64,000 bases of DNA from an uncultured Alphaproteobacteria bacterium (GCA_963770385.1 CAVYPJ010000001.1:1168750-1232749); one strand, 5' to 3'. Numbered from the stretch's first letter, positions 56,293 to 63,631 are shown. Numbers and translations: made by a program. Notes: generated by a model not told the origin, from the letters alone.

Positions 56293-56363
56293 TTTGCCTG
56301 GACACGGCAATTTGAGCCCGAATTCCAGAAAAGACCGGCATGCTAAGCTTTGGGGAAGAGCAG

Positions 56364-57095
56364 ATGATGTCGAATGCGACCCTGGACTCCCTGATACGGC
56401 GGCTGCGGACGACGTCAGCGATTGATGATGAGGATGTCGAGGTGATCGGCACGCTGCCGATGGACCTCAGGACTCTTGGGCCCAACCAGCACGTCGTCCG
56501 GGACGGGGAGAGGTCCACCGCGTGCTGCCTGCTGGCAGAGGGATTCTGCGTCCGCTCGAAGAGCACGTGGGAAGGGCGGCGGCAGATCCTGTCCATCCAC
56601 ATCCCCGGAGAAATCCCGGACCTGCAGAGCCTTTATCTGCATGTGATGGATCATGACCTTGTGACGCTGACGGAATCTCGTGTCGGCTACATCCCGCACA
56701 CGGCGCTACAGGACATGGTTCGCCAGAGGCCCAATGTCGCGGCGGTGCTATGGCGGGACACTCTGATCGACGCGGCAATGTTCCGCGAATGGATCGTCAA
56801 TGTCGGCCAGCGGCCGGCGACCAGCCGGCTCGCGCATATCGTGGTCGAGCTGCGGGCGCGCCTGAAGGTCATTGGCCGCAGCGATGGCAGCCGCATCGAG
56901 ATGCCGCTGACGCAGGAGCAGATCGGCGAAGCGATGGGGATCACTCCGATCCACGCCAATCGGATTATCAAGCAATTGCGCGAGGAGGGCGTGCTCGAAT
57001 TTCACCGCGGTCATGTAACGGTGCTGGACGAGGGCAAGCTGGAGGAACTCGCCCACTTCGACGACCGTTATCTTCATTTGAAACCTTCGCTTTAG
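56364..57095 (+). CDS. Crp/Fnr family transcriptional regulator
   Basis: GRRQILSIHIPGEIPDL, PLTQEQIGEAMGITPIHANR HTH. Confidence 0.92.
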   Translation: MMSNATLDSLIRRLRTTSAIDDEDVEVIGTLPMDLRTLGPNQHVVRDGERSTACCLLAEGFCVRSKSTWEGRRQILSIHIPGEIPDLQSLYLHVMDHDLVTLTESRVGYIPHTALQDMVRQRPNVAAVLWRDTLIDAAMFREWIVNVGQRPATSRLAHIVVELRARLKVIGRSDGSRIEMPLTQEQIGEAMGITPIHANRIIKQLREEGVLEFHRGHVTVLDEGKLEELAHFDDRYLHLKPSL

Positions 57096-57103
57096 GGGGA
57101 CAA

Positions 57104-57331
57104 ATGCCGCGGTATCATTTTCACATCCGGGAAAACGGCCGCCTCATTCGCGACGAGGAGGGACAGGAGTTTCCAGACAAAGACGCTGTCCGAAGAGAGG
57201 CGGTGGAAACGGGCGCTTCCATCGCACGAGATGTCTTCATGAACGGAAGCGCGAGGCTTGTCGTGGTCGATGTGCACGAGGAGAACCGGACCTGCCTGAA
57301 AGTCTCGATCTCCCTCTGTGTTGAAGAATGA
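57104..57331 (+). CDS. DUF6894 family small protein
   Basis: MPRYHFHI..DEEGQEFPD. Confidence 0.75.
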   Translation: MPRYHFHIRENGRLIRDEEGQEFPDKDAVRREAVETGASIARDVFMNGSARLVVVDVHEENRTCLKVSISLCVEE

Positions 57332-57367
57332 TGACGCACGGCGGCGCAAATGCCGCGTGGGACATTA

Positions 57368-57392
57368 GGAACCATCCTCACGAAGCCGTGTT
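57368..57392 (+). promoter_or_regulatory. EcfG-like promoter GGAAC-N16-TGTT upstream of the DUF892 gene
   Basis: Near-consensus match. Confidence 0.6.
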
Positions 57393-57426
57393 GCTTTCCG
57401 CACAACACCAACCAGCGGAGCCACTC

Positions 57427-57916
57427 ATGGCAGAGAAAGACCTCAACGATTTGTTTCTCGATACTCTGAAGGACATCTATTACGCCGAGAAGCAAATCTA
57501 CAAATCATTGCCGAAGATGGCGAAGGCCGCGAATTCAGATCAGCTTCGCCAAGCCTTCGAGAAACATCACCAGGAGACCGAAGGCCAGATCGAACGGCTG
57601 GAGCAGATCTTCGAGCTGATCGACAAGCCCGCGCGCGGCAAGAAGTGCGATGCGATCGAGGGCATTCTGGACGAAGGCAAGGAGATCATGGACGAATACA
57701 AGGGCGCTCCGGCGCTCGATGCGGGTCTGCTCGCCGCGGCCCAGGCGGTCGAGCACTACGAGATTTCCCGCTATGGCACACTCAAGGCGTGGGCAACAAA
57801 GCTCGGCAACAAGGAGGCCGTCAAACTGCTCGACGCGAACTCTGTCCGAGGAGAAGAAGACCGACGAAACGCTGACCAGGATCGCCATGAGCGCCGTCAA
57901 CGCCGAGGCGGCCTGA
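57427..57916 (+). pseudogene. yciF: Ferritin-like DUF892 (YciF-like) stress protein with a +1 frameshift near 57840
   Basis: LKDIYYAEKQ, AQAVEHYEISRYGTL; removing one A in GCGAACTCTG restores TLSEEKKTDETL. Confidence 0.85.
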
Positions 57917-58016
57917 TCGACGCTTGCGGCATCGTTACAAAATGTCGGATGCTCCCGGGGTCATCTCAGGAGCATCCGATAATCGAGCCGGGTGTTATGA
58001 AGGCGCTGAGGCGATA

Positions 58017-59507
58017 TCAGCTGGGAATGCCGGGAGTGGTGCCGCGTCCAAGCGCGAACTGACCGACCGGACCTTCGACGTGAAACTCAAGCCCTGTCAT
58101 CCTGGCGAACAGGTCAATATTGCTCGTCCCGACGGCGCATCCGCCGAGGTCCATGTCCGTGGCAGTCAGATACAGCGTCTGCAGTAGCACGCCGACGTCG
58201 CGAAGGATCAGCGAGTAGGCGATCGCGCTGTATTTCCAGGCGATCCGGTCGAAACGAGCTGCAATCGTGATCAGAATCTGAGGCGGCCCGGGAGCGTCCA
58301 TGGCGAATGCAGCGGCGCCGATCAAGGCCTCCAGCTCCTGCGCGCGTACCTCGATCGGCACGAGTGCATGGCGGTCGGCGTCGTAATGATAGAAGCCCGG
58401 CGTGAGGCCATCGCATCGGGCGACCGCGAGATAAAGCTCGAGCTCATAGGCGCTACCGGCCGAGGGATAGGGCCGAGTCGTGTAGTCGATCTCGGGACCG
58501 AACGTGCCATCGCCGAAGTCGAGCGGGTTGATCCATTTCGATCGTACGCGCGCTGCGCAATCGAGGAATTGCGCAAGCTCGGCTAGCGTGATCGGATTCT
58601 GGTCGTCGAATTCCCGGATCGAGTGGCGCTCGCCCAGCAGCTCCGCAAAAGGTGACATCAGCTCGTTCGTCGCGTCCGTGAACGGCTGCAGATCGATCGT
58701 CGTGCCCGGCCACGCCGGCCGGACAGCCGAGGGCGGCGGGATCAGGTCGACATAGGGGTAACGCCCGCCAATCGGATTGGCCTGCCGCCCCTCGGTACTT
58801 TGGACGTGAAACAGCAGATCATGGAAATCCCATACCACGAGTGGGGCGCCGCCTTCGCTTGGACGCAGACCCTCATCGCCAACGGTTTCGATCTTGAACA
58901 GGATCTGGCAATCCAGCAGCAGCGCAAGCAGTTCCTCGCCCGGACCACCCTGCTGCCGCAGCTTGCCAACCCTGTGCGGAGACGACAGCGTGACGAGCGC
59001 AGATGCGATCTTCGGATCCGCGATGCGAAACAGCGCCGCGGCGCGCGGCGATTCCAGCACCATCTCGTTGCCGCGCCGGCGCATATAGGCGAAGCGCGAC
59101 AAAACGACCGTATCGGTCGCGCGGAGCTTTTGTATCTTCGGCCAATAGTCGGCGGACTGCGGTTCGACGACGACGAGGTCCTGATCGCCGCGTGCACGGG
59201 AGAGGCGATATTCGACGAGGCCTCGTCGCGCGAGTTGCCGCACCACGAGATCAATCTCGCGGTCGACCGAGCTTCCATCCACGGAGAACGAATGGAGCGG
59301 GAGGCCGCTTCGAAGATCACGCGCCCGCTTGATCGCGCCCGTGCTGAATTTACCCAGTTCGACCGCGTAGCCGTCGAAGTCGGCCGCAAGACTGCCGTCC
59401 GGCCGCGCTTGAATAGTGAAGTGCTCGTTCAACCTGACGGAGAGAACGGGCGGGGTCGTCTTTCGCCGTTTCTTGGGCGAAGGTTTCTTGGATTGAAGCG
59501 CGGGCAC
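58017..59507 (-). CDS. SagB/ThcOx-type FMN-dependent azoline oxidase with N-terminal extension
   Basis: RHSIREF, RPYPSAGSAYELELY, WKYSAIAYSL..DVGVLLQTLYL; directly downstream of the YcaO gene. Confidence 0.92.
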   Translation of the reverse strand: MPALQSKKPSPKKRRKTTPPVLSVRLNEHFTIQARPDGSLAADFDGYAVELGKFSTGAIKRARDLRSGLPLHSFSVDGSSVDREIDLVVRQLARRGLVEYRLSRARGDQDLVVVEPQSADYWPKIQKLRATDTVVLSRFAYMRRRGNEMVLESPRAAALFRIADPKIASALVTLSSPHRVGKLRQQGGPGEELLALLLDCQILFKIETVGDEGLRPSEGGAPLVVWDFHDLLFHVQSTEGRQANPIGGRYPYVDLIPPPSAVRPAWPGTTIDLQPFTDATNELMSPFAELLGERHSIREFDDQNPITLAELAQFLDCAARVRSKWINPLDFGDGTFGPEIDYTTRPYPSAGSAYELELYLAVARCDGLTPGFYHYDADRHALVPIEVRAQELEALIGAAAFAMDAPGPPQILITIAARFDRIAWKYSAIAYSLILRDVGVLLQTLYLTATDMDLGGCAVGTSNIDLFARMTGLEFHVEGPVGQFALGRGTTPGIPS

Positions 59508-59522: not shown

Positions 59523-61856
59523 TCAGGTGTGGGGCAGGAACGGCGTCAGCTCTTCCTCCGGCAACGAGCGCTCCAGAAGGCCGAGCTTGACCGGCACGTC
59601 GTAGAGGCGGCCCGGCCCGAAGCGCTTGTAGAAATGCCGCATGCCCGGAACGAGCACCCTGACCACGGGCACCTCGACATCGGGCCGCGTCTGGTCGAGG
59701 ACCAGAAAATCCATGCCGGCGCGACTTGCGATGTCGACACAGGCCTGCACCTGGTCGCGGGTGTTGTCGTGGACCGAGAGACCCACTGCCGGCGGCAGCA
59801 CCGGGTTCGCGGCGGGCAGCAGGAACGGATAGTTATCGAGGTTCAACGGCGTCACGCCATCGAGCGTGGGCTTCTCGCCACTTGCGCCACCCATCATGCC
59901 GATCGCCAGGAATTGGCTGAGCTCCGTCAGCGCGCGCAACAATGCGATCCGCCGGTCGAAATGCGAACCGGAGCCGAACTCGATGTTCTCCTGGCCGTCC
60001 TGCATCCAGTGCATGATTGCCACATAAGTGGGAATGCCGATATCGCTGGTGATGTCGAGTACCCAGATCTTCCGGCCAGCCTCGGCGAATTGCGACTTGA
60101 TATCGCGCACATAGGAATCGTCGAACTGGTCGAGATCGAGCTCGGCGCGCTGCGAGCGATTGTACCACCAGATCGCATAAGCATCGCGTTCGACAAGCTC
60201 AAGGAAGCCTTGAACGATCGCTTCTTCGCGCGTGTTGCCTGCCGCGCAGCCGTTGGAGTCGGTGTGGAAGCCGCGATAGAAGAAGTAGAGCAGCCCGGTC
60301 GGGAAATATTGGAAACGCTTGTCGCGCAGCGACCATGCCGGCGACCACTCGGTCTTCTCGGAAGGGTCGAACGGATGTGGCACCTGGTGCGCGCCATCGG
60401 GCTGTGGAATGTGCCTGGTGTCGTATTGCGACTGGCTGAAGAGCTGGACGTCGTTGGGCAGCATCGCTTCGCCGAGCTCGAAATCCGTGAAGCGTTTTGT
60501 GATCCGGATCTCGTCGCCCTGGAAGATTCCGGAGTAGCGCTCGATTGCCTCCATCAGCGCGCTGGCCTCGGCCTGCTCGGGGGTCGAGCCCTTGCCATAG
60601 CTGCCGCCGCTCAGGCCTGAGCGGAGCTGATCGACGCTGTGCGCCGGCGCGGAGAAATTATGCTGGGCGTAGAAGTTCGTGTTCATCGGCAGATCGGCCT
60701 CAATCCGCTCGAGTTGAGTGACCACACCGGTGAGGGGGCTGACATGCTTGCGGAAGCGCGACACGGTCGTACGTGACGACACCGTGCGATAGCCGCCGCT
60801 GGTCATGATCAGCTTGTTGCCTTCGGCAAGCTCGACCGGCCGTGGCCTGCGGCGCGGATTGTAGAGCTTCTTGCTGCCGCAGGTCGGGCATTGCGGGCGC
60901 CTCGCGACATAATGCTTGGCGATGTTCGCGCCCATCATGTCGAAGCTCGCGATATGATTATTTAGGTCGGTGCGAAAACCCGATGCAATTGCCTTTGCGA
61001 TCTCGACGGCGGCGAACTGGATGCCGCCCTGGCCGAGCATGTTGCGGACGAGCGGGGAGGTGGCGACCCGCTGCGCCGGCCCGCGCTCGAGGAAGCCTTT
61101 GATCTCGCGATTGCGGATCATGCGATCAAACAGGCAGGTCCAGCAAGCGGTCTCGCCCGGCTTGAGCACCGGTCCAACCAGAGGAAAGACGCCCGACGGT
61201 TGCACCAAGAGCCAAGGCGTCTTGTCTGCCACGCGCTGCTGGTTCAATTCGGCCAGACGCCGCTCCAGATAATCATTTGCCAGTGTGATAGTGAGATCCG
61301 GCGAGCGCGGCACGATGCGAACGCCGAGTTCGGCCAGGGCAGCCGTGAGCTCCTTGGCGCCAGCCACGTCGATCGCTTCAACGCGCACCTTGCACTCGCT
61401 GAGATTCTTCTCGGCGATCTCAGGCGGCAATCCGAGGCTTGCCCAGTAGCCTGCAACCGTCCCGTCGGCGCCATAGGAAGCTTGTGTGACGTAGCGCCGT
61501 TCGAGCAACCGTTTCAGCGCCTCCTCGATCTTGTCAGCGGGGAATTGCGGCTGCAGGTCGCGAAGAAGATCCTTTGCACTCTTGCCGCCTTTGGCGATCG
61601 CCGATACCAGCGTGCAATAGAGTTCGCCGTGCAGGAAGAATTTCCGGTCCTCCGAATAGAGGCACACGACATCGGGCGGCAGAACATAAGCGGTAAAATT
61701 CGGCGTGAATTGCAGGGCGTCCTTGCTGGCCGCCCGCTTGGCGACGGTCTTCTTGGAGGTGGTCCGCTTCGAGGCAGTCTCCTTCGAGGCAGCCTTCTTC
61801 GAGGCAGTCTTGCGTTGAGCCGTCTTGCGATGAACCTTCATCGTCTTCGCACGCAC
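59523..61856 (-). CDS. Fused azole cyclodehydratase (RRE / E1-like C domain / YcaO D domain)
   Basis: GETACWTCL and RRPQCPTCG; SALMEAIERYSG; SNGCAAGNTREEAIVQGFLELVERDA; Pro-rich C-terminus LTPFLPHT. Confidence 0.94.
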   Translation of the reverse strand: MRAKTMKVHRKTAQRKTASKKAASKETASKRTTSKKTVAKRAASKDALQFTPNFTAYVLPPDVVCLYSEDRKFFLHGELYCTLVSAIAKGGKSAKDLLRDLQPQFPADKIEEALKRLLERRYVTQASYGADGTVAGYWASLGLPPEIAEKNLSECKVRVEAIDVAGAKELTAALAELGVRIVPRSPDLTITLANDYLERRLAELNQQRVADKTPWLLVQPSGVFPLVGPVLKPGETACWTCLFDRMIRNREIKGFLERGPAQRVATSPLVRNMLGQGGIQFAAVEIAKAIASGFRTDLNNHIASFDMMGANIAKHYVARRPQCPTCGSKKLYNPRRRPRPVELAEGNKLIMTSGGYRTVSSRTTVSRFRKHVSPLTGVVTQLERIEADLPMNTNFYAQHNFSAPAHSVDQLRSGLSGGSYGKGSTPEQAEASALMEAIERYSGIFQGDEIRITKRFTDFELGEAMLPNDVQLFSQSQYDTRHIPQPDGAHQVPHPFDPSEKTEWSPAWSLRDKRFQYFPTGLLYFFYRGFHTDSNGCAAGNTREEAIVQGFLELVERDAYAIWWYNRSQRAELDLDQFDDSYVRDIKSQFAEAGRKIWVLDITSDIGIPTYVAIMHWMQDGQENIEFGSGSHFDRRIALLRALTELSQFLAIGMMGGASGEKPTLDGVTPLNLDNYPFLLPAANPVLPPAVGLSVHDNTRDQVQACVDIASRAGMDFLVLDQTRPDVEVPVVRVLVPGMRHFYKRFGPGRLYDVPVKLGLLERSLPEEELTPFLPHT

Positions 61857-62004
61857 GTTTCACCTATCGTTTTAGCGGGACCTGCGGCGCATGATGTCTC
61901 GGCCGCTGAAGCATCCAGTCCGCGCCCTAGCATTTTCTGCGAATTCTGGAAACCCTATGCCCTTGTCGAGAGAGGCAACGGCGGTGCCACAAAGGGGACA
62001 TGAA

Positions 62005-62036
62005 ATGGCCGGGTCGACTTGGTCGAACCCGGCCAT
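62005..62036 (-). terminator. Strong hairpin between the precursor and enzyme genes
   Basis: ATGGCCGGG-TTCGACCAAGTCGA-CCCGGCCAT followed by TTC; only a short U tract. Confidence 0.6.
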
Positions 62037-62077
62037 GACTTCGCACATTTTGAATGTCGTCAGGATTCGCTCCGCCG

Positions 62078-62473
62078 TCAGCAGACGCGGCAGGGTCCGC
62101 CCCACGAGATGCAGCAACCACCGCAACCACCGCAACCGACGCCACAACGGCAGGCGCGGCATCCGCGGCATCCACCGCAGCCCCGGCAGCCGCGGCAACC
62201 GCCACAGCCACGCCATGCAACCTGCACACCGTTGCCAGCATTTTCCTTGTCGAACAAATGGAATGTCGCCAAGCTCACATCGGCGATTTCTTCTTCACCG
62301 AGCGTCACCGCCTGAGACGGCGAAAAGTTCAATTTCTGCGGAGTGTCCACGGCCGGTACGGCCGAAGCTGAAGCGCCGCCCGCCAGCGAAAAAGTCAGAC
62401 CTGCGGCACCTAAGGCCGGCATTGTGGCTTTCGCCACGCTCTTCCGCTTCGAAGCCTGCTTCACCCGTGACAT
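62078..62473 (-). CDS. RiPP precursor peptide, 131 aa, with a Cys/Gly/Arg-rich core
   Basis: AAGGAGGAG RBS; signal-like N-terminus; acidic LGEEEIADVSL leader; core with 14 Cys; first gene of the YcaO/SagB operon. Confidence 0.88.
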   Translation of the reverse strand: MSRVKQASKRKSVAKATMPALGAAGLTFSLAGGASASAVPAVDTPQKLNFSPSQAVTLGEEEIADVSLATFHLFDKENAGNGVQVAWRGCGGCRGCRGCGGCRGCRACRCGVGCGGCGGCCISWGGPCRVC

Positions 62474-62520
62474 TGTAGCTCCTCCTTACCTGTGGGAACG
62501 TTTCGATTCCAGCCGCTGCA

Positions 62521-62549
62521 ATATTACGCTTGGCGACCGTGCCGCGCAA
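62521..62549 (-). promoter_or_regulatory. Sigma70-like promoter TTGCGC-N17-TAATAT for the RiPP operon
   Basis: Correct 17-nt spacing, about 48 nt upstream of the precursor ATG. Confidence 0.5.
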
Positions 62550-62722
62550 GCAACTAACGCGTTGTTTCGTATTCAGTTTCTATTCATCTTGATGAATGAC
62601 ATTGATGTCATTTATGCGATGCTTCCGCAGGCGGATTTGCGTGTTGCGACTTCATCGCGCAAACAACTCGGCAGGTGCAATGCATCTGCGGCAGTGCAGT
62701 GCAAACGGATAGCGTAGTCGGC

Positions 62723-63631
62723 ATGGTCGATCGTCAGGGCTGCTTTGTCTGGTATGAGCTGTTGACCACTGACGTGGCGGCGGCGAAGGCGTTCTATCGC
62801 GACGTCATCGGTTGGGAGTCGCAAGATGCGACGACACCAGCGTTTACTTACAGTCTTTTTATGTCGTCGAGCGGTGCGGTCGCCGGATTGATGGATCTGC
62901 CCGAGGAAGGTCGGCGAATGGGAGCGACGCCGAGGTGGGTCGGCTATGTCGCTGTCGACGACATCGACGCGACCGCCGATCAGGTCAGAAAGCTTGGCGG
63001 TAGGATCTACGTTCCGCCGACGGACAGCAATATCGGTCGGCTTTCGATCGTTGCCGACGCGCAAGCCGCGGACTTCGCGCTCGTTGATGGATTGAAGCCG
63101 GAGCGCCGGGCCACCGCTCCGGATGCGCCGGGGCATGTTGGCTGGCACGAATTGCTGGCAGCGGATGGCGCAAGCGCGTTCGCGTTTTACGCCGAACTGT
63201 TCGGCTGGAAAAAAGCTGAAGCGGTGGGACCGAAGAGTGCAGTCGAGTCCTACCAACTGTTCGCCGCTGACGGTGTCACGATGGGAGGCATCTTCACCAA
63301 GTTCGCCCGCGAGCGGGTTCCGTTCTGGCTATACTACTTCAATGTCGCCGATGTCGCGCAAGCGGTTGCGCGGGTGAGGGCGGGCGGCGGCAAGGTCGTG
63401 CAAGGGCCGACGGAATTGCCGGACGGAAGTTGGATCGTCCGCTGTATCGATCCTCAGGATACGATGTTCGCGCTACAGGGCAAATCGAGCCAGCGTGGCG
63501 CCGAGCAGCCCGCGGCCGAGATCGGCTGGTCCACAAAGTGGGGGGACTTCGCCTCACGCGGCAGAATGATTGTCCGGCCGGAGGCCAAGCCGAACACAAG
63601 CCCGAACACAAAGCCGAAGCCGCAGCGCTGA
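62723..63631 (+). CDS. Two-domain VOC (glyoxalase/bleomycin-resistance-like) protein
   Basis: FVWYEL..AKAFYRDVIGW and VGWHEL..AFAFYAELFGW repeats; divergent from the precursor. Confidence 0.88.
   Translation: MVDRQGCFVWYELLTTDVAAAKAFYRDVIGWESQDATTPAFTYSLFMSSSGAVAGLMDLPEEGRRMGATPRWVGYVAVDDIDATADQVRKLGGRIYVPPTDSNIGRLSIVADAQAADFALVDGLKPERRATAPDAPGHVGWHELLAADGASAFAFYAELFGWKKAEAVGPKSAVESYQLFAADGVTMGGIFTKFARERVPFWLYYFNVADVAQAVARVRAGGGKVVQGPTELPDGSWIVRCIDPQDTMFALQGKSSQRGAEQPAAEIGWSTKWGDFASRGRMIVRPEAKPNTSPNTKPKPQR

What the first reader, a model, noticed from the sequence alone, without database searches (positions are those of the whole stretch)
62081..62212. Precursor core: 14 Cys with an (x-G-C)n period and interspersed Arg
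Seen in sequence: residues 88-131 read RGCGGCRGCRGCGGCRGCRACRCGVGCGGCGGCCISWGGPCRVC. Cys falls every third residue from 90 to 108 and again from 114 to 120, nearly always after Gly. Inference: full processing would give a regularly spaced, cationic polythiazole backbone, suited to nucleic-acid or ribosome binding or to metal chelation. Partial processing would leave a metallothionein-like thiol tail (CC...CxxC end).
Basis: partly seen in the sequence, partly recalled or inferred. Interest (0 to 1): 0.8.

Follow-up and report, generated by a model that had tools for sequence, protein, structure and literature searches.

The report
Cysteine-repeat core of azole peptide
This stretch encodes the cysteine-rich end of a small Bradyrhizobium protein that the two enzymes next door most likely turn into a chain of about a dozen thiazole rings; the family occurs in about half of Bradyrhizobium species, was listed once in a 2015 survey table, and has never been studied.

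Summary
Residues 88-131 of the minus-strand ORF 62078-62473 hold 14 Cys. Nine of the 13 Cys-Cys gaps are exactly 3 residues, which 6 of 200,000 shuffles reach.

The ORF is a real gene. It has a strong ribosome-binding site and pN/pS of 0.17-0.21 in the N-terminus, leader and core. It has thousands of homologues that keep the Gly-Cys period while the repeat number varies.

It is the precursor of a linear azole peptide cluster. Downstream lie a full-length LynD/TruD-type heterocyclase and a CyaGox/ThcOx-type azoline oxidase. A two-domain VOC (glyoxalase/bleomycin-resistance fold) protein is co-inherited, next to the precursor in Bradyrhizobium and after the oxidase in a second genus.

About 55% of sampled Bradyrhizobium species genomes carry 1-8 precursor copies. 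Many copies are orphans that share a TTCAT-N4-ATGAA palindrome upstream.

The precursor has a conserved signal-peptide-like N-terminus. No protease or exporter is linked to the cluster.

The Arg positions are not universal: the second genus uses His or Lys and has a different tail.

Cox et al. 2015 listed a homologous precursor in a supplement under "Cyanobactin". The peptide's function (antibacterial or metal-binding) is unresolved. This is a real, uncharacterised new member of a known class.

The parts
62081..62212 (-). Core region (residues 88-131): (R/G)-G-C repeats with 14 Cys, followed by the conserved tail
   Evidence: Translation and Cys positions; shuffle test; 9-nt tandem repeats; pattern conserved in 128 homologues.
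62081..62116 (-). C-terminal cap CCISWGGPCRVC. The family consensus is CCxSWGxCRxC; the window has one extra residue.
   Evidence: The tail is present in 121 of 128 family members and is more conserved than the repeat count. The second subfamily has GYWCWxNGVRxWC instead.
62078..62473 (-). Precursor gene, 131 aa plus stop
   Evidence: ORF. Strong ribosome-binding site AAGGAGGAG at 62479-62487. Purifying selection. More than 5,900 database relatives; every relative with an organism name is from Bradyrhizobium. No Pfam, NCBIfam or PADLOC family.
62360..62473 (-). Signal-peptide-like N-terminus (residues 1-38): basic n-region with net charge +6, an Ala/Gly/Leu h-region, then ASASA
   Evidence: Charge and hydropathy: the 15-residue Kyte-Doolittle maximum is 1.34 in the window and averages 1.6 in the family. 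pN/pS is 0.21, so the region is translated and constrained. The STM 3843 homologue is annotated 'conserved exported hypothetical protein'. Export and cleavage are not shown.
62213..62302 (-). Acidic leader motif LGEEEIADVSLATFHLFDKE...VQVAW (residues 58-87), the presumed recognition sequence for the heterocyclase
   Evidence: This is the most conserved block of the family. L58, E60-E62, D65-L68, T70, F71 and D75 are invariant in alignment A1, and pN/pS is 0.17. It is shared by orphan copies and by the second genus. Its role as the binding site is inferred from the RRE/TIGR03882 domain in the enzyme.
62005..62036 (-). GC-rich hairpin ATGGCCGGGTTCGACCAAGTCGACCCGGCCAT between the precursor and the enzyme gene. 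Candidate attenuator or transcript-stabilising element.
   Evidence: Fold. A hairpin of this type occurs after cluster-linked precursors in 40 loci, with a mean best 48-nt energy of -25.6 against -17.6 kcal/mol for shuffles. It has a weak U-tail and the consensus terminator scan did not call it.
59523..61856 (-). Fused E1-like/RRE + YcaO cyclodehydratase (777 aa) with a Lys/Ala-rich N-terminal tail
   Evidence: PF02624 at 311.7 bits; TIGR03604 at 227 bits (cut-off 219); TIGR03882 leader-binding domain; PF21084 winged helix. Full-length match to LynD 4v1t (E 3e-147), TruD 4bs9 and MusD 7u58.
58017..59507 (-). Azoline oxidase (496 aa): ThcOx N-domain plus SagB-type FMN dehydrogenase
   Evidence: PF22767, PF00881 and TIGR03605. 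CyaGox 5lq4 and 8pz5 at E 9e-54. It starts 15 nt after the cyclodehydratase stop.
62723..63631 (+). Divergent two-domain VOC (glyoxalase/bleomycin-resistance fold) protein, co-inherited with the cluster. The ORF is open from 62675; the likely start is M17 at 62723.
   Evidence: Pfam Glyoxalase x2 and Ble-like_N. It is adjacent in every one of about 66 Bradyrhizobium loci that carry the enzymes, including loci that lack the OpgC neighbour. It lies after the oxidase in three genomes of a second genus. It is absent from three same-genus genomes that lack the cluster. AF2 model pLDDT 84; best fold matches are Rv0577 (3oxh, TM 0.86) and AbxF.
62583..62596 (-). Palindrome TTCATCAAGATGAA (TTCAT-N4-ATGAA), a candidate operator shared by linked and orphan precursor genes
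   Evidence: It lies 100-160 nt upstream of the ATG in 79 of 94 distinct precursors, including the Bradyrhizobium orphans. The strict form occurs only twice in the 7.9-Mb genome, both times upstream of a full-length precursor. The binding factor is unknown.
62521..62550 (-). Possible promoter: cTTGCG, 18 nt, TAATAT
   Evidence: Read from the sequence. Both hexamer regions are conserved in the 40-locus alignment of the intergenic region. The strict sigma-70 scan did not call it. Inferred only.

Best explanation
Window 62081-62212 encodes the core of a genuine precursor of a linear azole-containing peptide (LAP/TOMM class).

Shown:
- The gene is real and under purifying selection.
- It heads an operon with a full-length LynD/TruD-type ATP-dependent heterocyclase and a CyaGox/ThcOx-type FMN oxidase.
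- The (basic or Gly)-Gly-Cys period is conserved across thousands of relatives while the repeat number drifts.
- One enzyme pair serves several precursor genes per genome.
- A VOC-fold protein is co-inherited with the cluster.

Inferred:
- The enzyme's RRE domain binds the acidic LGEEEIADVSLATF leader.
- The YcaO domain cyclodehydrates most Gly-Cys units and the oxidase aromatises them. The product would be a glycine-spaced, cationic chain of up to 14 thiazoles, including a 4,2-bisthiazole from the CC pair, ending in a Trp/Cys cap.
- The conserved signal-peptide-like N-terminus, together with the lack of any linked exporter or protease, suggests export by the general secretory pathway after modification.

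My best guess for function is a competition peptide that binds a polyanionic target (nucleic acid, ribosome or cell envelope), with the VOC protein acting as a self-protection binder or a tailoring enzyme. I put that at about 45% and treat it as unproven. The confidence given applies to the identity and biosynthetic logic, not to the function.
For: - Gene reality: ribosome-binding site and pN/pS of 0.17-0.21.
- Enzymes: TIGR03604, TIGR03882, PF02624, TIGR03605 and PF22767; LynD/TruD at E about 1e-147 over the full length; CyaGox at E 9e-54.
- Synteny VOC|A-CD-B in about 66 of the 80 best loci, and A-CD-B-VOC in a second genus.
- Pattern conservation and a non-random period.
- The own genome has three precursor paralogues but only one YcaO of this type.
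- 110 of 201 genus genomes carry 1-8 copies.
- Orphan and linked genes share an operator-like palindrome.
- N-terminus features and constraint, plus the 'exported' annotation of a homologue.
- Sec signal peptides on RiPP precursors have a precedent in bufferins (PMC12452194).
- From my own knowledge of microcin B17 and BalhCD work: Gly before the cyclised residue is the preferred substrate context of azole synthetases.
Against: - No product has been observed, so the number of Cys converted is unknown.
- The h-region is only weakly hydrophobic (Kyte-Doolittle 1.3-1.6) and no signal-peptide predictor was available. The N-terminus could instead be part of the recognition sequence or a membrane anchor.
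- After signal cleavage the roughly 50-residue linker and leader would remain attached, and no protease is evident.
- The VOC fold search is ambiguous between a binder (Rv0577) and an enzyme (AbxF).
- His-rich cores in the sister subfamily fit metal binding at least as well as polyanion binding.
Confidence: 0.8

Rival explanations
1. Exported metal- or redox-buffering peptide, following the logic of bufferins but made by a YcaO enzyme. The precursor is modified in the cytoplasm and sent to the periplasm by its Sec signal. There, thiazole nitrogens, His residues and any unconverted Cys in the cap bind Cu, Zn or Ni.
For: - Signal-peptide-like N-terminus with no linked exporter or protease.
- The sister subfamily has GHGHGC and HHHH runs, with His about 10% of the core.
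- A four-Cys cap is conserved in 121 of 128 members.
- Chromosomal, present in about half of the species, and multi-copy.
- Bufferins show that Sec-exported, Cys-modified RiPPs that chelate copper exist (PMC12452194).
Against: - In Bradyrhizobium the variable basic position is Arg, and in some sister-subfamily members Lys. Neither is a metal ligand.
- Full thiazole formation removes the thiolates.
- No metal-responsive element was recognised upstream and no riboswitch was found.
- No metal-homeostasis genes are linked.
Confidence: 0.2
2. A true cyanobactin: the core is cut out and macrocyclised.
For: The heterocyclase and the oxidase are closest to cyanobactin enzymes. Cox et al. 2015 filed the Bradyrhizobium D proteins under 'Cyanobactin'.
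Against: - No PatA or PatG protease lies within 10 kb in any of the loci examined. The flanking genes differ between species.
- The precursor has no repeated cassettes or flanking recognition sites. It has a single 35-100-residue Gly/Cys core that runs to the C-terminus.
Confidence: 0.02
3. The Cys-rich protein functions unmodified, as a secreted disulfide-rich or metallothionein-like protein, and its adjacency to the enzymes is incidental.
For: Two fragmentary genomes of the second genus have a precursor but no YcaO gene at all. Many copies are orphans.
Against: - Both YcaO-less assemblies are highly fragmented (120 and 250 contigs). In one the contig ends about 345 bp after the precursor, and in the other it ends inside the precursor.
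- All three better-assembled genomes of that genus that carry precursors have one YcaO directly next to a precursor.
- Precursor-enzyme adjacency holds in about 66 of 80 loci and across two families of the order.
- Orphans keep the leader motif, and the Bradyrhizobium orphans also keep the shared operator.
Confidence: 0.03
4. Not a gene: an accidental open frame across GC-rich tandem repeats.
For: All six frames are open here, and the DNA is a degenerate 9-nt repeat.
Against: - pN/pS is 0.17-0.21 in this frame.
- There is a strong ribosome-binding site.
- Core lengths vary widely (23-102 residues), yet every homologue stays open in this frame through to the conserved tail.
- The leader and the tail are conserved.
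Confidence: 0.01

Closest known systems
Cyanobactin heterocyclase and oxidase machinery (PatD/TruD/LynD plus ThcOx/CyaGox)
   Same: The enzymes are full-length homologues: LynD at E 3e-147, TruD, and CyaGox at E 9e-54. The cyclodehydratase is a single fused E1-like/RRE/YcaO chain. The leader is acidic and helix-prone.
   Different: There are no PatA or PatG proteases, no cassette architecture and no macrocyclisation signals. The core is one long Gly/Cys repeat and the host is an alphaproteobacterium. It is a linear product class built with cyanobactin-type enzymes.
Heterocycloanthracin/sonorensin precursors (TIGR03601, Bacillus cereus group)
   Same: Both have Cys at a three-residue period (Gly-Cys or Cys-Ser repeats), variable repeat number, a fused cyclodehydratase, and precursors often encoded far from the enzymes (PMC4603692).
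   Different: The precursor does not hit TIGR03601. The heterocycloanthracin cyclodehydratase is N-terminally truncated and needs a separate F protein, whereas this enzyme carries its own leader-binding domain. The leader is different, and this family has a signal-peptide-like N-terminus, basic residues in the repeat and a VOC partner.
Microcin B17
   Same: Both are linear peptides with a Gly-rich core in which Gly-Cys (or Gly-Ser) become azoles. Adjacent Cys or Ser give a 4,2-bis-heterocycle, and the window has one CC pair. (From my own knowledge and PMC6395948.)
   Different: Microcin B17 uses a separate McbBCD complex, a dedicated McbEF exporter and the McbG immunity protein. It has 8 heterocyclised residues rather than up to 14, no basic residues in the repeat and no signal peptide.
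Bufferins and oxazolins (MNIO-modified RiPPs)
   Same: The precursors have an N-terminal Sec-type signal instead of a linked exporter. Cys-derived heterocycles are made in the cytoplasm before export. Genomes often carry several copies (PMC12452194).
   Different: Those use a different enzyme (MNIO/DUF692 plus a DUF2063 partner), different chemistry and unrelated precursor families. Their copper binding is demonstrated, whereas nothing is demonstrated here.
Phazolicin and klebsazolicin
   Same: Both are linear azole peptides from Proteobacteria. Phazolicin comes from a Rhizobium and acts on related rhizobia by blocking the ribosome exit tunnel (PMC6783444, PMC10128002).
   Different: Those have short cores with alternating Ser/Cys azoles, separate BCD enzymes and a dedicated exporter. 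There is no sequence relation to this precursor.

Membership tests
Linear azol(in)e-containing peptide (LAP/TOMM) cluster | YcaO-domain cyclodehydratase next to the precursor | tested here: met
   PF02624 at 311.7 bits and TIGR03604 at 227.2 bits (cut-off 219.25). The gene starts 221 nt after the precursor stop.
Linear azol(in)e-containing peptide (LAP/TOMM) cluster | E1-like partner or RRE leader-binding domain | tested here: met
   TIGR03882 'TOMM precursor leader peptide-binding protein' at 142 bits (cut-off 36.9), and PF21084 winged helix, fused in the same chain.
Linear azol(in)e-containing peptide (LAP/TOMM) cluster | FMN-dependent SagB-type dehydrogenase (for azoles rather than azolines) | tested here: met
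   TIGR03605 at 178.4 bits (cut-off 78.4), PF00881, and CyaGox at E 9e-54.
Linear azol(in)e-containing peptide (LAP/TOMM) cluster | Precursor with a conserved leader and a Cys/Ser/Thr-rich core | tested here: met
   The leader block is invariant across subfamilies. The core is 32% Cys.
Linear azol(in)e-containing peptide (LAP/TOMM) cluster | Azole rings present in the mature product | not testable with these tools
   This needs mass spectrometry. No publication on the product was found.
Cyanobactin | PatA-type and PatG-type proteases or macrocyclase in the cluster | tested here: not met
   The gene tables and tblastn of the flanks show only VOC, OpgC and variable housekeeping neighbours.
Cyanobactin | Core cassettes flanked by protease recognition sequences | tested here: not met
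   There is a single uninterrupted Gly/Cys core that runs to the C-terminus.
Heterocycloanthracin/sonorensin (TIGR03601) | Precursor matches TIGR03601 | tested here: not met
   No NCBIfam hit at E <= 0.01.
Heterocycloanthracin/sonorensin (TIGR03601) | Truncated fused cyclodehydratase that depends on a separate ocin-ThiF-like F protein | tested here: not met
   The enzyme aligns with LynD from residue 46 and carries TIGR03882 itself. No F-protein gene is adjacent.
Bufferin-type (Sec-exported RiPP) | MNIO (DUF692) enzyme with a DUF2063 partner | tested here: not met
   Neither family appears among the Pfam hits of the cluster genes and neighbours.
Bufferin-type (Sec-exported RiPP) | Cleavable Sec signal peptide on the precursor | tested here: inconclusive
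   A tripartite n/h/c layout, a +6 n-region and ASASA are present, but the h-region is weak (Kyte-Doolittle 1.3-1.6). No predictor or experiment was available.
VOC-fold antibiotic-binding self-resistance protein (bleomycin/mitomycin type) | VOC fold gene co-inherited with the biosynthetic genes | tested here: met
VOC-fold antibiotic-binding self-resistance protein (bleomycin/mitomycin type) | Binds the product and confers resistance | not testable with these tools
   The nearest folds are Rv0577 (function unclear) and the enzyme AbxF, not the bleomycin-binding proteins.

The most novel reading that the evidence does not exclude
This would be the first YcaO-made RiPP family that uses the cell's general Sec pathway instead of a dedicated exporter and leader protease. 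The product would be a periplasmic or secreted polythiazole peptide whose basic (Arg) or His-rich repeat acts as a metal or redox buffer, or as an envelope-associated polymer, rather than as a classical antibiotic. One enzyme pair would mature a regulon of up to eight trans-encoded precursors through a shared operator.
Probability: 0.2. Interest if true: 0.8.

Novelty: new member of a known kind. Interest (0 to 1): 0.5.

Why it matters
Bradyrhizobium is one of the most abundant soil and root-nodule genera. About half of its species carry this cluster, yet no product, target or role is known.

A peptide with up to 14 glycine-spaced thiazoles would be among the most heavily heterocyclised linear RiPPs. 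It would be an obvious candidate for strain competition in the rhizosphere, which matters for inoculant success.

If the N-terminus is a working Sec signal, the very unusual signal-peptide route known from bufferins would extend to YcaO chemistry. The co-inherited VOC protein would then offer a handle on self-protection or on a new tailoring step.

The work also corrects a database habit. These clusters sit in the 'cyanobactin' group by enzyme similarity, although they lack everything that makes a cyanobactin.

Tried and rejected
1. Family look-ups for the precursor in Pfam, NCBIfam (including TIGR03601) and PADLOC gave no hit.

2. Precursors without any YcaO. Two genomes of the second genus have a precursor and no YcaO. 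I rejected this as biology. Both assemblies are fragmented and break at or beside the repeat. All three better assemblies have a YcaO next to a precursor.

3. The neighbouring Crp/Fnr regulator (56340-57095) as the factor for the TTCAT-N4-ATGAA box. Likely orthologues (at least 60% identity) occur in 3 of 15 cluster-positive and 3 of 12 cluster-negative genomes. The gene is adjacent only in the closest relative. Not supported.

4. A genome-wide regulon for the box. There are 12 core sites, 9 of them inside long open frames. The only other intergenic site lies between a galE-like gene and a sugar-transferase gene. No wider regulon is evident.

5. Consensus scans. The sigma-70 scan found nothing, and the only terminator call lies inside the coding sequence. 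The whole 234-nt spacer does not fold better than shuffles (z = -0.7), although the local hairpin is strong.

6. Rfam search of 61700-62800 found no riboswitch or known RNA. The only match was isrG at 13 bits against a gathering score of 100.

7. VOC function from the fold is ambiguous between Rv0577 and AbxF.

8. A conserved protease or exporter in the flanks of either genus: none found.

10. Four literature searches found no paper that discusses this family. The only trace is the supplementary table of Cox et al. 2015.

Full report
**The observation**

There are 14 Cys, at 90, 93, 96, 99, 102, 105, 108, 110, 114, 117, 120, 121, 128 and 131. Nine of them follow Gly.

The pattern is not explained by composition. 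Among 200,000 shuffles of the same 44 residues, only 6 reach nine 3-residue gaps and only 20 reach a run of six. The DNA underneath is a degenerate 9-nt tandem repeat, so the period comes from duplication of three-codon units.

**Is it a gene?**

All six frames are open across this GC-rich repeat, so I tested the frame.
- AAGGAGGAG lies 5 nt upstream of the ATG.
- Against about 80 homologous genes, pN/pS is 0.21 for residues 1-38, 0.51 for the linker 39-57, 0.17 for residues 58-87 and 0.21 for the alignable core columns.
- A search of the protein database returned more than 5,900 relatives. Every relative that carries an organism name is from Bradyrhizobium.

The family has a fixed layout:
- a basic and hydrophobic N-terminus (KRKRVTKAAVPALGAAGLTFSLVGGASASA);
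- a variable linker;
- an almost invariant acidic block, LGEEEIADVSLATFHLFDKE;
- a repeat region of variable length;
- a cap, CCxSWGxCRxC.

In 128 members, 63% of Cys-Cys gaps are 3, 64% of Cys follow Gly, the median is 14 Cys, and 121 keep the cap. Among about 80 species loci, core length from the first Cys to the end runs from 23 to 102 residues.

**What surrounds it**

Downstream on the same strand lie two enzyme genes.
- A 777-aa protein carries a winged-helix/RRE domain, the TIGR03882 leader-binding domain and a complete YcaO domain (TIGR03604 above its cut-off).
- A 496-aa protein carries a ThcOx domain and a SagB-type dehydrogenase domain.

By sequence, the first is a full-length homologue of the cyanobactin heterocyclases LynD, TruD and MusD (E 3e-147 to 9e-137). 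The second is a homologue of the cyanobactin oxidase CyaGox (E 9e-54).

A strong GC-rich hairpin (62005-62036) sits between the precursor and the enzyme gene. It recurs after cluster-linked precursors in 40 loci, with a mean energy of -25.6 against -17.6 kcal/mol for shuffles. This fits the usual RiPP arrangement in which the precursor transcript outnumbers the enzyme transcript, but that is an inference.

**A fourth conserved gene**

A two-domain VOC (glyoxalase/bleomycin-resistance fold) protein is divergently transcribed upstream, at 62723-63631.

- Of the 80 best loci from a scan of one genome per species, about 66 have VOC|precursor-heterocyclase-oxidase. This includes ten loci where the otherwise common OpgC neighbour is missing.
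- The VOC gene is absent from three same-genus genomes that lack the cluster.
- In a second genus, in a different family of the same order with 2.3-3.8 Mb genomes, the VOC gene is kept but moved to the other end, giving precursor-heterocyclase-oxidase-VOC.

Retention through a rearrangement argues for a functional link. What the protein does is open. The AF2 model (pLDDT 84) is closest to Rv0577 and next to AbxF, a spiroketal-forming tailoring enzyme. Both a binding or immunity role and a tailoring role remain possible.

No protease or exporter is conserved in the flanks of either genus.

**Distribution and copy number**

In a sample of 201 species genomes of the genus, 110 have the precursor (74 of 139 high-quality genomes), with 1 to 8 copies each.

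The window's own genome has three copies:
- the one in the window;
- a 176-aa orphan with a longer Gly/Phe-rich repeat;
- a 127-aa orphan that keeps the leader but has a short Pro-rich tail.

It has only one YcaO of this type; its second YcaO gene lies 1.5 Mb from the orphan on the same contig. About 12 of the 80 loci are orphans. One enzyme pair therefore probably serves several precursors in trans, as described for heterocycloanthracins (PMC4603692).

**A shared cis element**

A palindrome, TTCAT-N4-ATGAA, lies 100-160 nt upstream of the start codon in 79 of 94 distinct precursors, and this includes the Bradyrhizobium orphans.

In the 7.9-Mb genome the strict form occurs exactly twice, upstream of the two full-length precursors. 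The window copy is at 62583-62596.

The box has the 5-4-5 layout of Crp/Fnr-type sites. However, the Crp/Fnr gene that happens to lie nearby (56340-57095) does not co-occur with the cluster. The second genus lacks the box.

**The N-terminus**

Residues 1-38 have a +6 n-region, an Ala/Gly/Leu h-region of modest hydrophobicity and an ASASA c-region. They are as constrained as the leader block, and one homologue is annotated as exported.

Signal peptides on RiPP precursors are described as highly unusual, and use of the Sec machinery in the native host has been shown experimentally only for bufferins (PMC12452194). Together with the missing exporter and protease, this suggests Sec export after modification. 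I could not run a signal-peptide predictor, and the twin-arginine consensus is not met, so this stays a hypothesis.

**The sister subfamily and what it says about the Arg residues**

In the second genus and in many metagenome sequences, the leader is the same but the core differs.
- The basic position is mostly His, sometimes Lys or Arg, as in GHGHGCGGC and HHHH runs. His makes up about 10% of the core.
- A hydrophobic patch (CVGIGIGC or CVGIWWGGC) follows.
- The cap is GYWCWxNGVRxWC.

The three-residue Cys spacing is still the commonest gap, at 48%. So the Gly-Cys period is the family-wide feature, whereas the Arg and the CC...CxxC cap are subfamily features. His-rich cores keep the metal-binding idea alive. 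The interchange of Arg, Lys and His points more to positive charge.

**An apparent exception that dissolved**

Two genomes of the second genus carry a precursor but no YcaO at all. Both are fragmented assemblies whose contigs end inside or just after the repeat. All three better assemblies have a YcaO directly beside a precursor. I treat the exception as an assembly gap.

**Comparison with what is known**

By its parts this is a linear azole peptide cluster: YcaO, RRE, dehydrogenase, and a precursor with a leader and a Cys-rich core are all present.

- It is not a cyanobactin, despite the enzyme similarity. There are no PatA/PatG proteases and no cassette architecture.
- It is not a heterocycloanthracin. 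The precursor does not hit TIGR03601, and the enzyme has its own leader-binding domain and needs no F protein.
- It works most like heterocycloanthracin and microcin B17 in its Gly-Cys repeat core, and possibly like bufferins in its export logic.

The family is not entirely unseen. Additional file 3 of Cox et al. 2015 lists Bradyrhizobium D proteins (USDA 6, SEMIA 5079 and 5080, STM 3843) under 'Cyanobactin'. For STM 3843 it prints the precursor from an internal Met, which omits the N-terminal 37 residues. The searches I ran found no mention of it in the main text of that paper, and four literature searches found no other paper that discusses it.

**Verdict**

The functional suggestions remain untested, and the cationic feature holds only for the Bradyrhizobium subfamily.

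I rate it a new member of a known kind, with moderate interest. The signal-peptide route, the VOC partner and the multi-precursor regulon are the aspects that could raise it if experiments bear them out.

Noticed in passing
window 62583-62596, and upstream of precursors in loci L006, L017, L043 and others: A TTCAT-N4-ATGAA palindrome lies upstream of 79 of 94 distinct precursor genes, orphans included. The strict form is unique to the two full-length precursor promoters in the 7.9-Mb genome. The binding factor is unknown, and the adjacent Crp/Fnr gene does not co-occur with the cluster.
   Followed up: yes
window 62595-62610: A second inverted repeat, ATGACAT-CA-ATGTCAT, lies immediately upstream of the conserved box and overlaps it. 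It was seen in the window and not checked in other loci.
   Followed up: no
window 61722-61856 (residues 1-45 of the cyclodehydratase): The enzyme has a Lys/Ala/Ser/Thr-rich, histone-H1-like N-terminal tail, with a weak NF038052 hit. Homologues have shorter basic tails of variable length before the conserved LQFAPNFTAYVLPP. It might mediate membrane or polyanion association.
   Followed up: partly
own genome C3:1178425-1178820 (L006) and C1:936407-936682 (L007), both outside the window: Two orphan precursor paralogues. One is 176 aa with a long Gly/Phe/Cys repeat and the canonical cap. The other is 127 aa with the same leader but only 5 Cys after the leader and a Pro/Gln/Lys-rich tail, and it lacks the upstream box.
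   Followed up: partly
window 62081-62212: Gly codons in the core are mixed (GGT 7, GGC 6, GGA 3) in a genome of 62% G+C. This lowers the DNA-level repetitiveness of a highly repetitive peptide.
   Followed up: no
L133, L134, L135 and P0121-P0240 (second genus and metagenomes): A His-rich sister subfamily has a hydrophobic patch and a conserved cap, GYWCWxNGVRxWC(P)Y..Y, with up to five precursor copies per genome.
   Followed up: partly
G092:C44 and G265:C93 (L010, L011, L020): Short-read assemblies break inside or just after the precursor repeat, which makes the cluster appear to be missing from otherwise 99%-complete genomes. This is a caution for presence/absence surveys of this family.
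   Followed up: yes
window 63485-63631 (VOC residues about 255-302): The VOC protein has a low-confidence C-terminal extension with conserved Trp, Ser and Gly positions (W269, W273, S278, G280) and a Lys/Pro-rich end. Its role is unknown.
   Followed up: no
window 56340-58062: A Crp/Fnr-family regulator and a DUF892 (YciF-like) gene flank the oxidase end of the cluster. They are adjacent only in the closest relative (L039). The DUF892 ORF, as listed by the mechanical ORF finder, overlaps the 3' end of the convergent oxidase gene by about 46 nt.
   Followed up: partly
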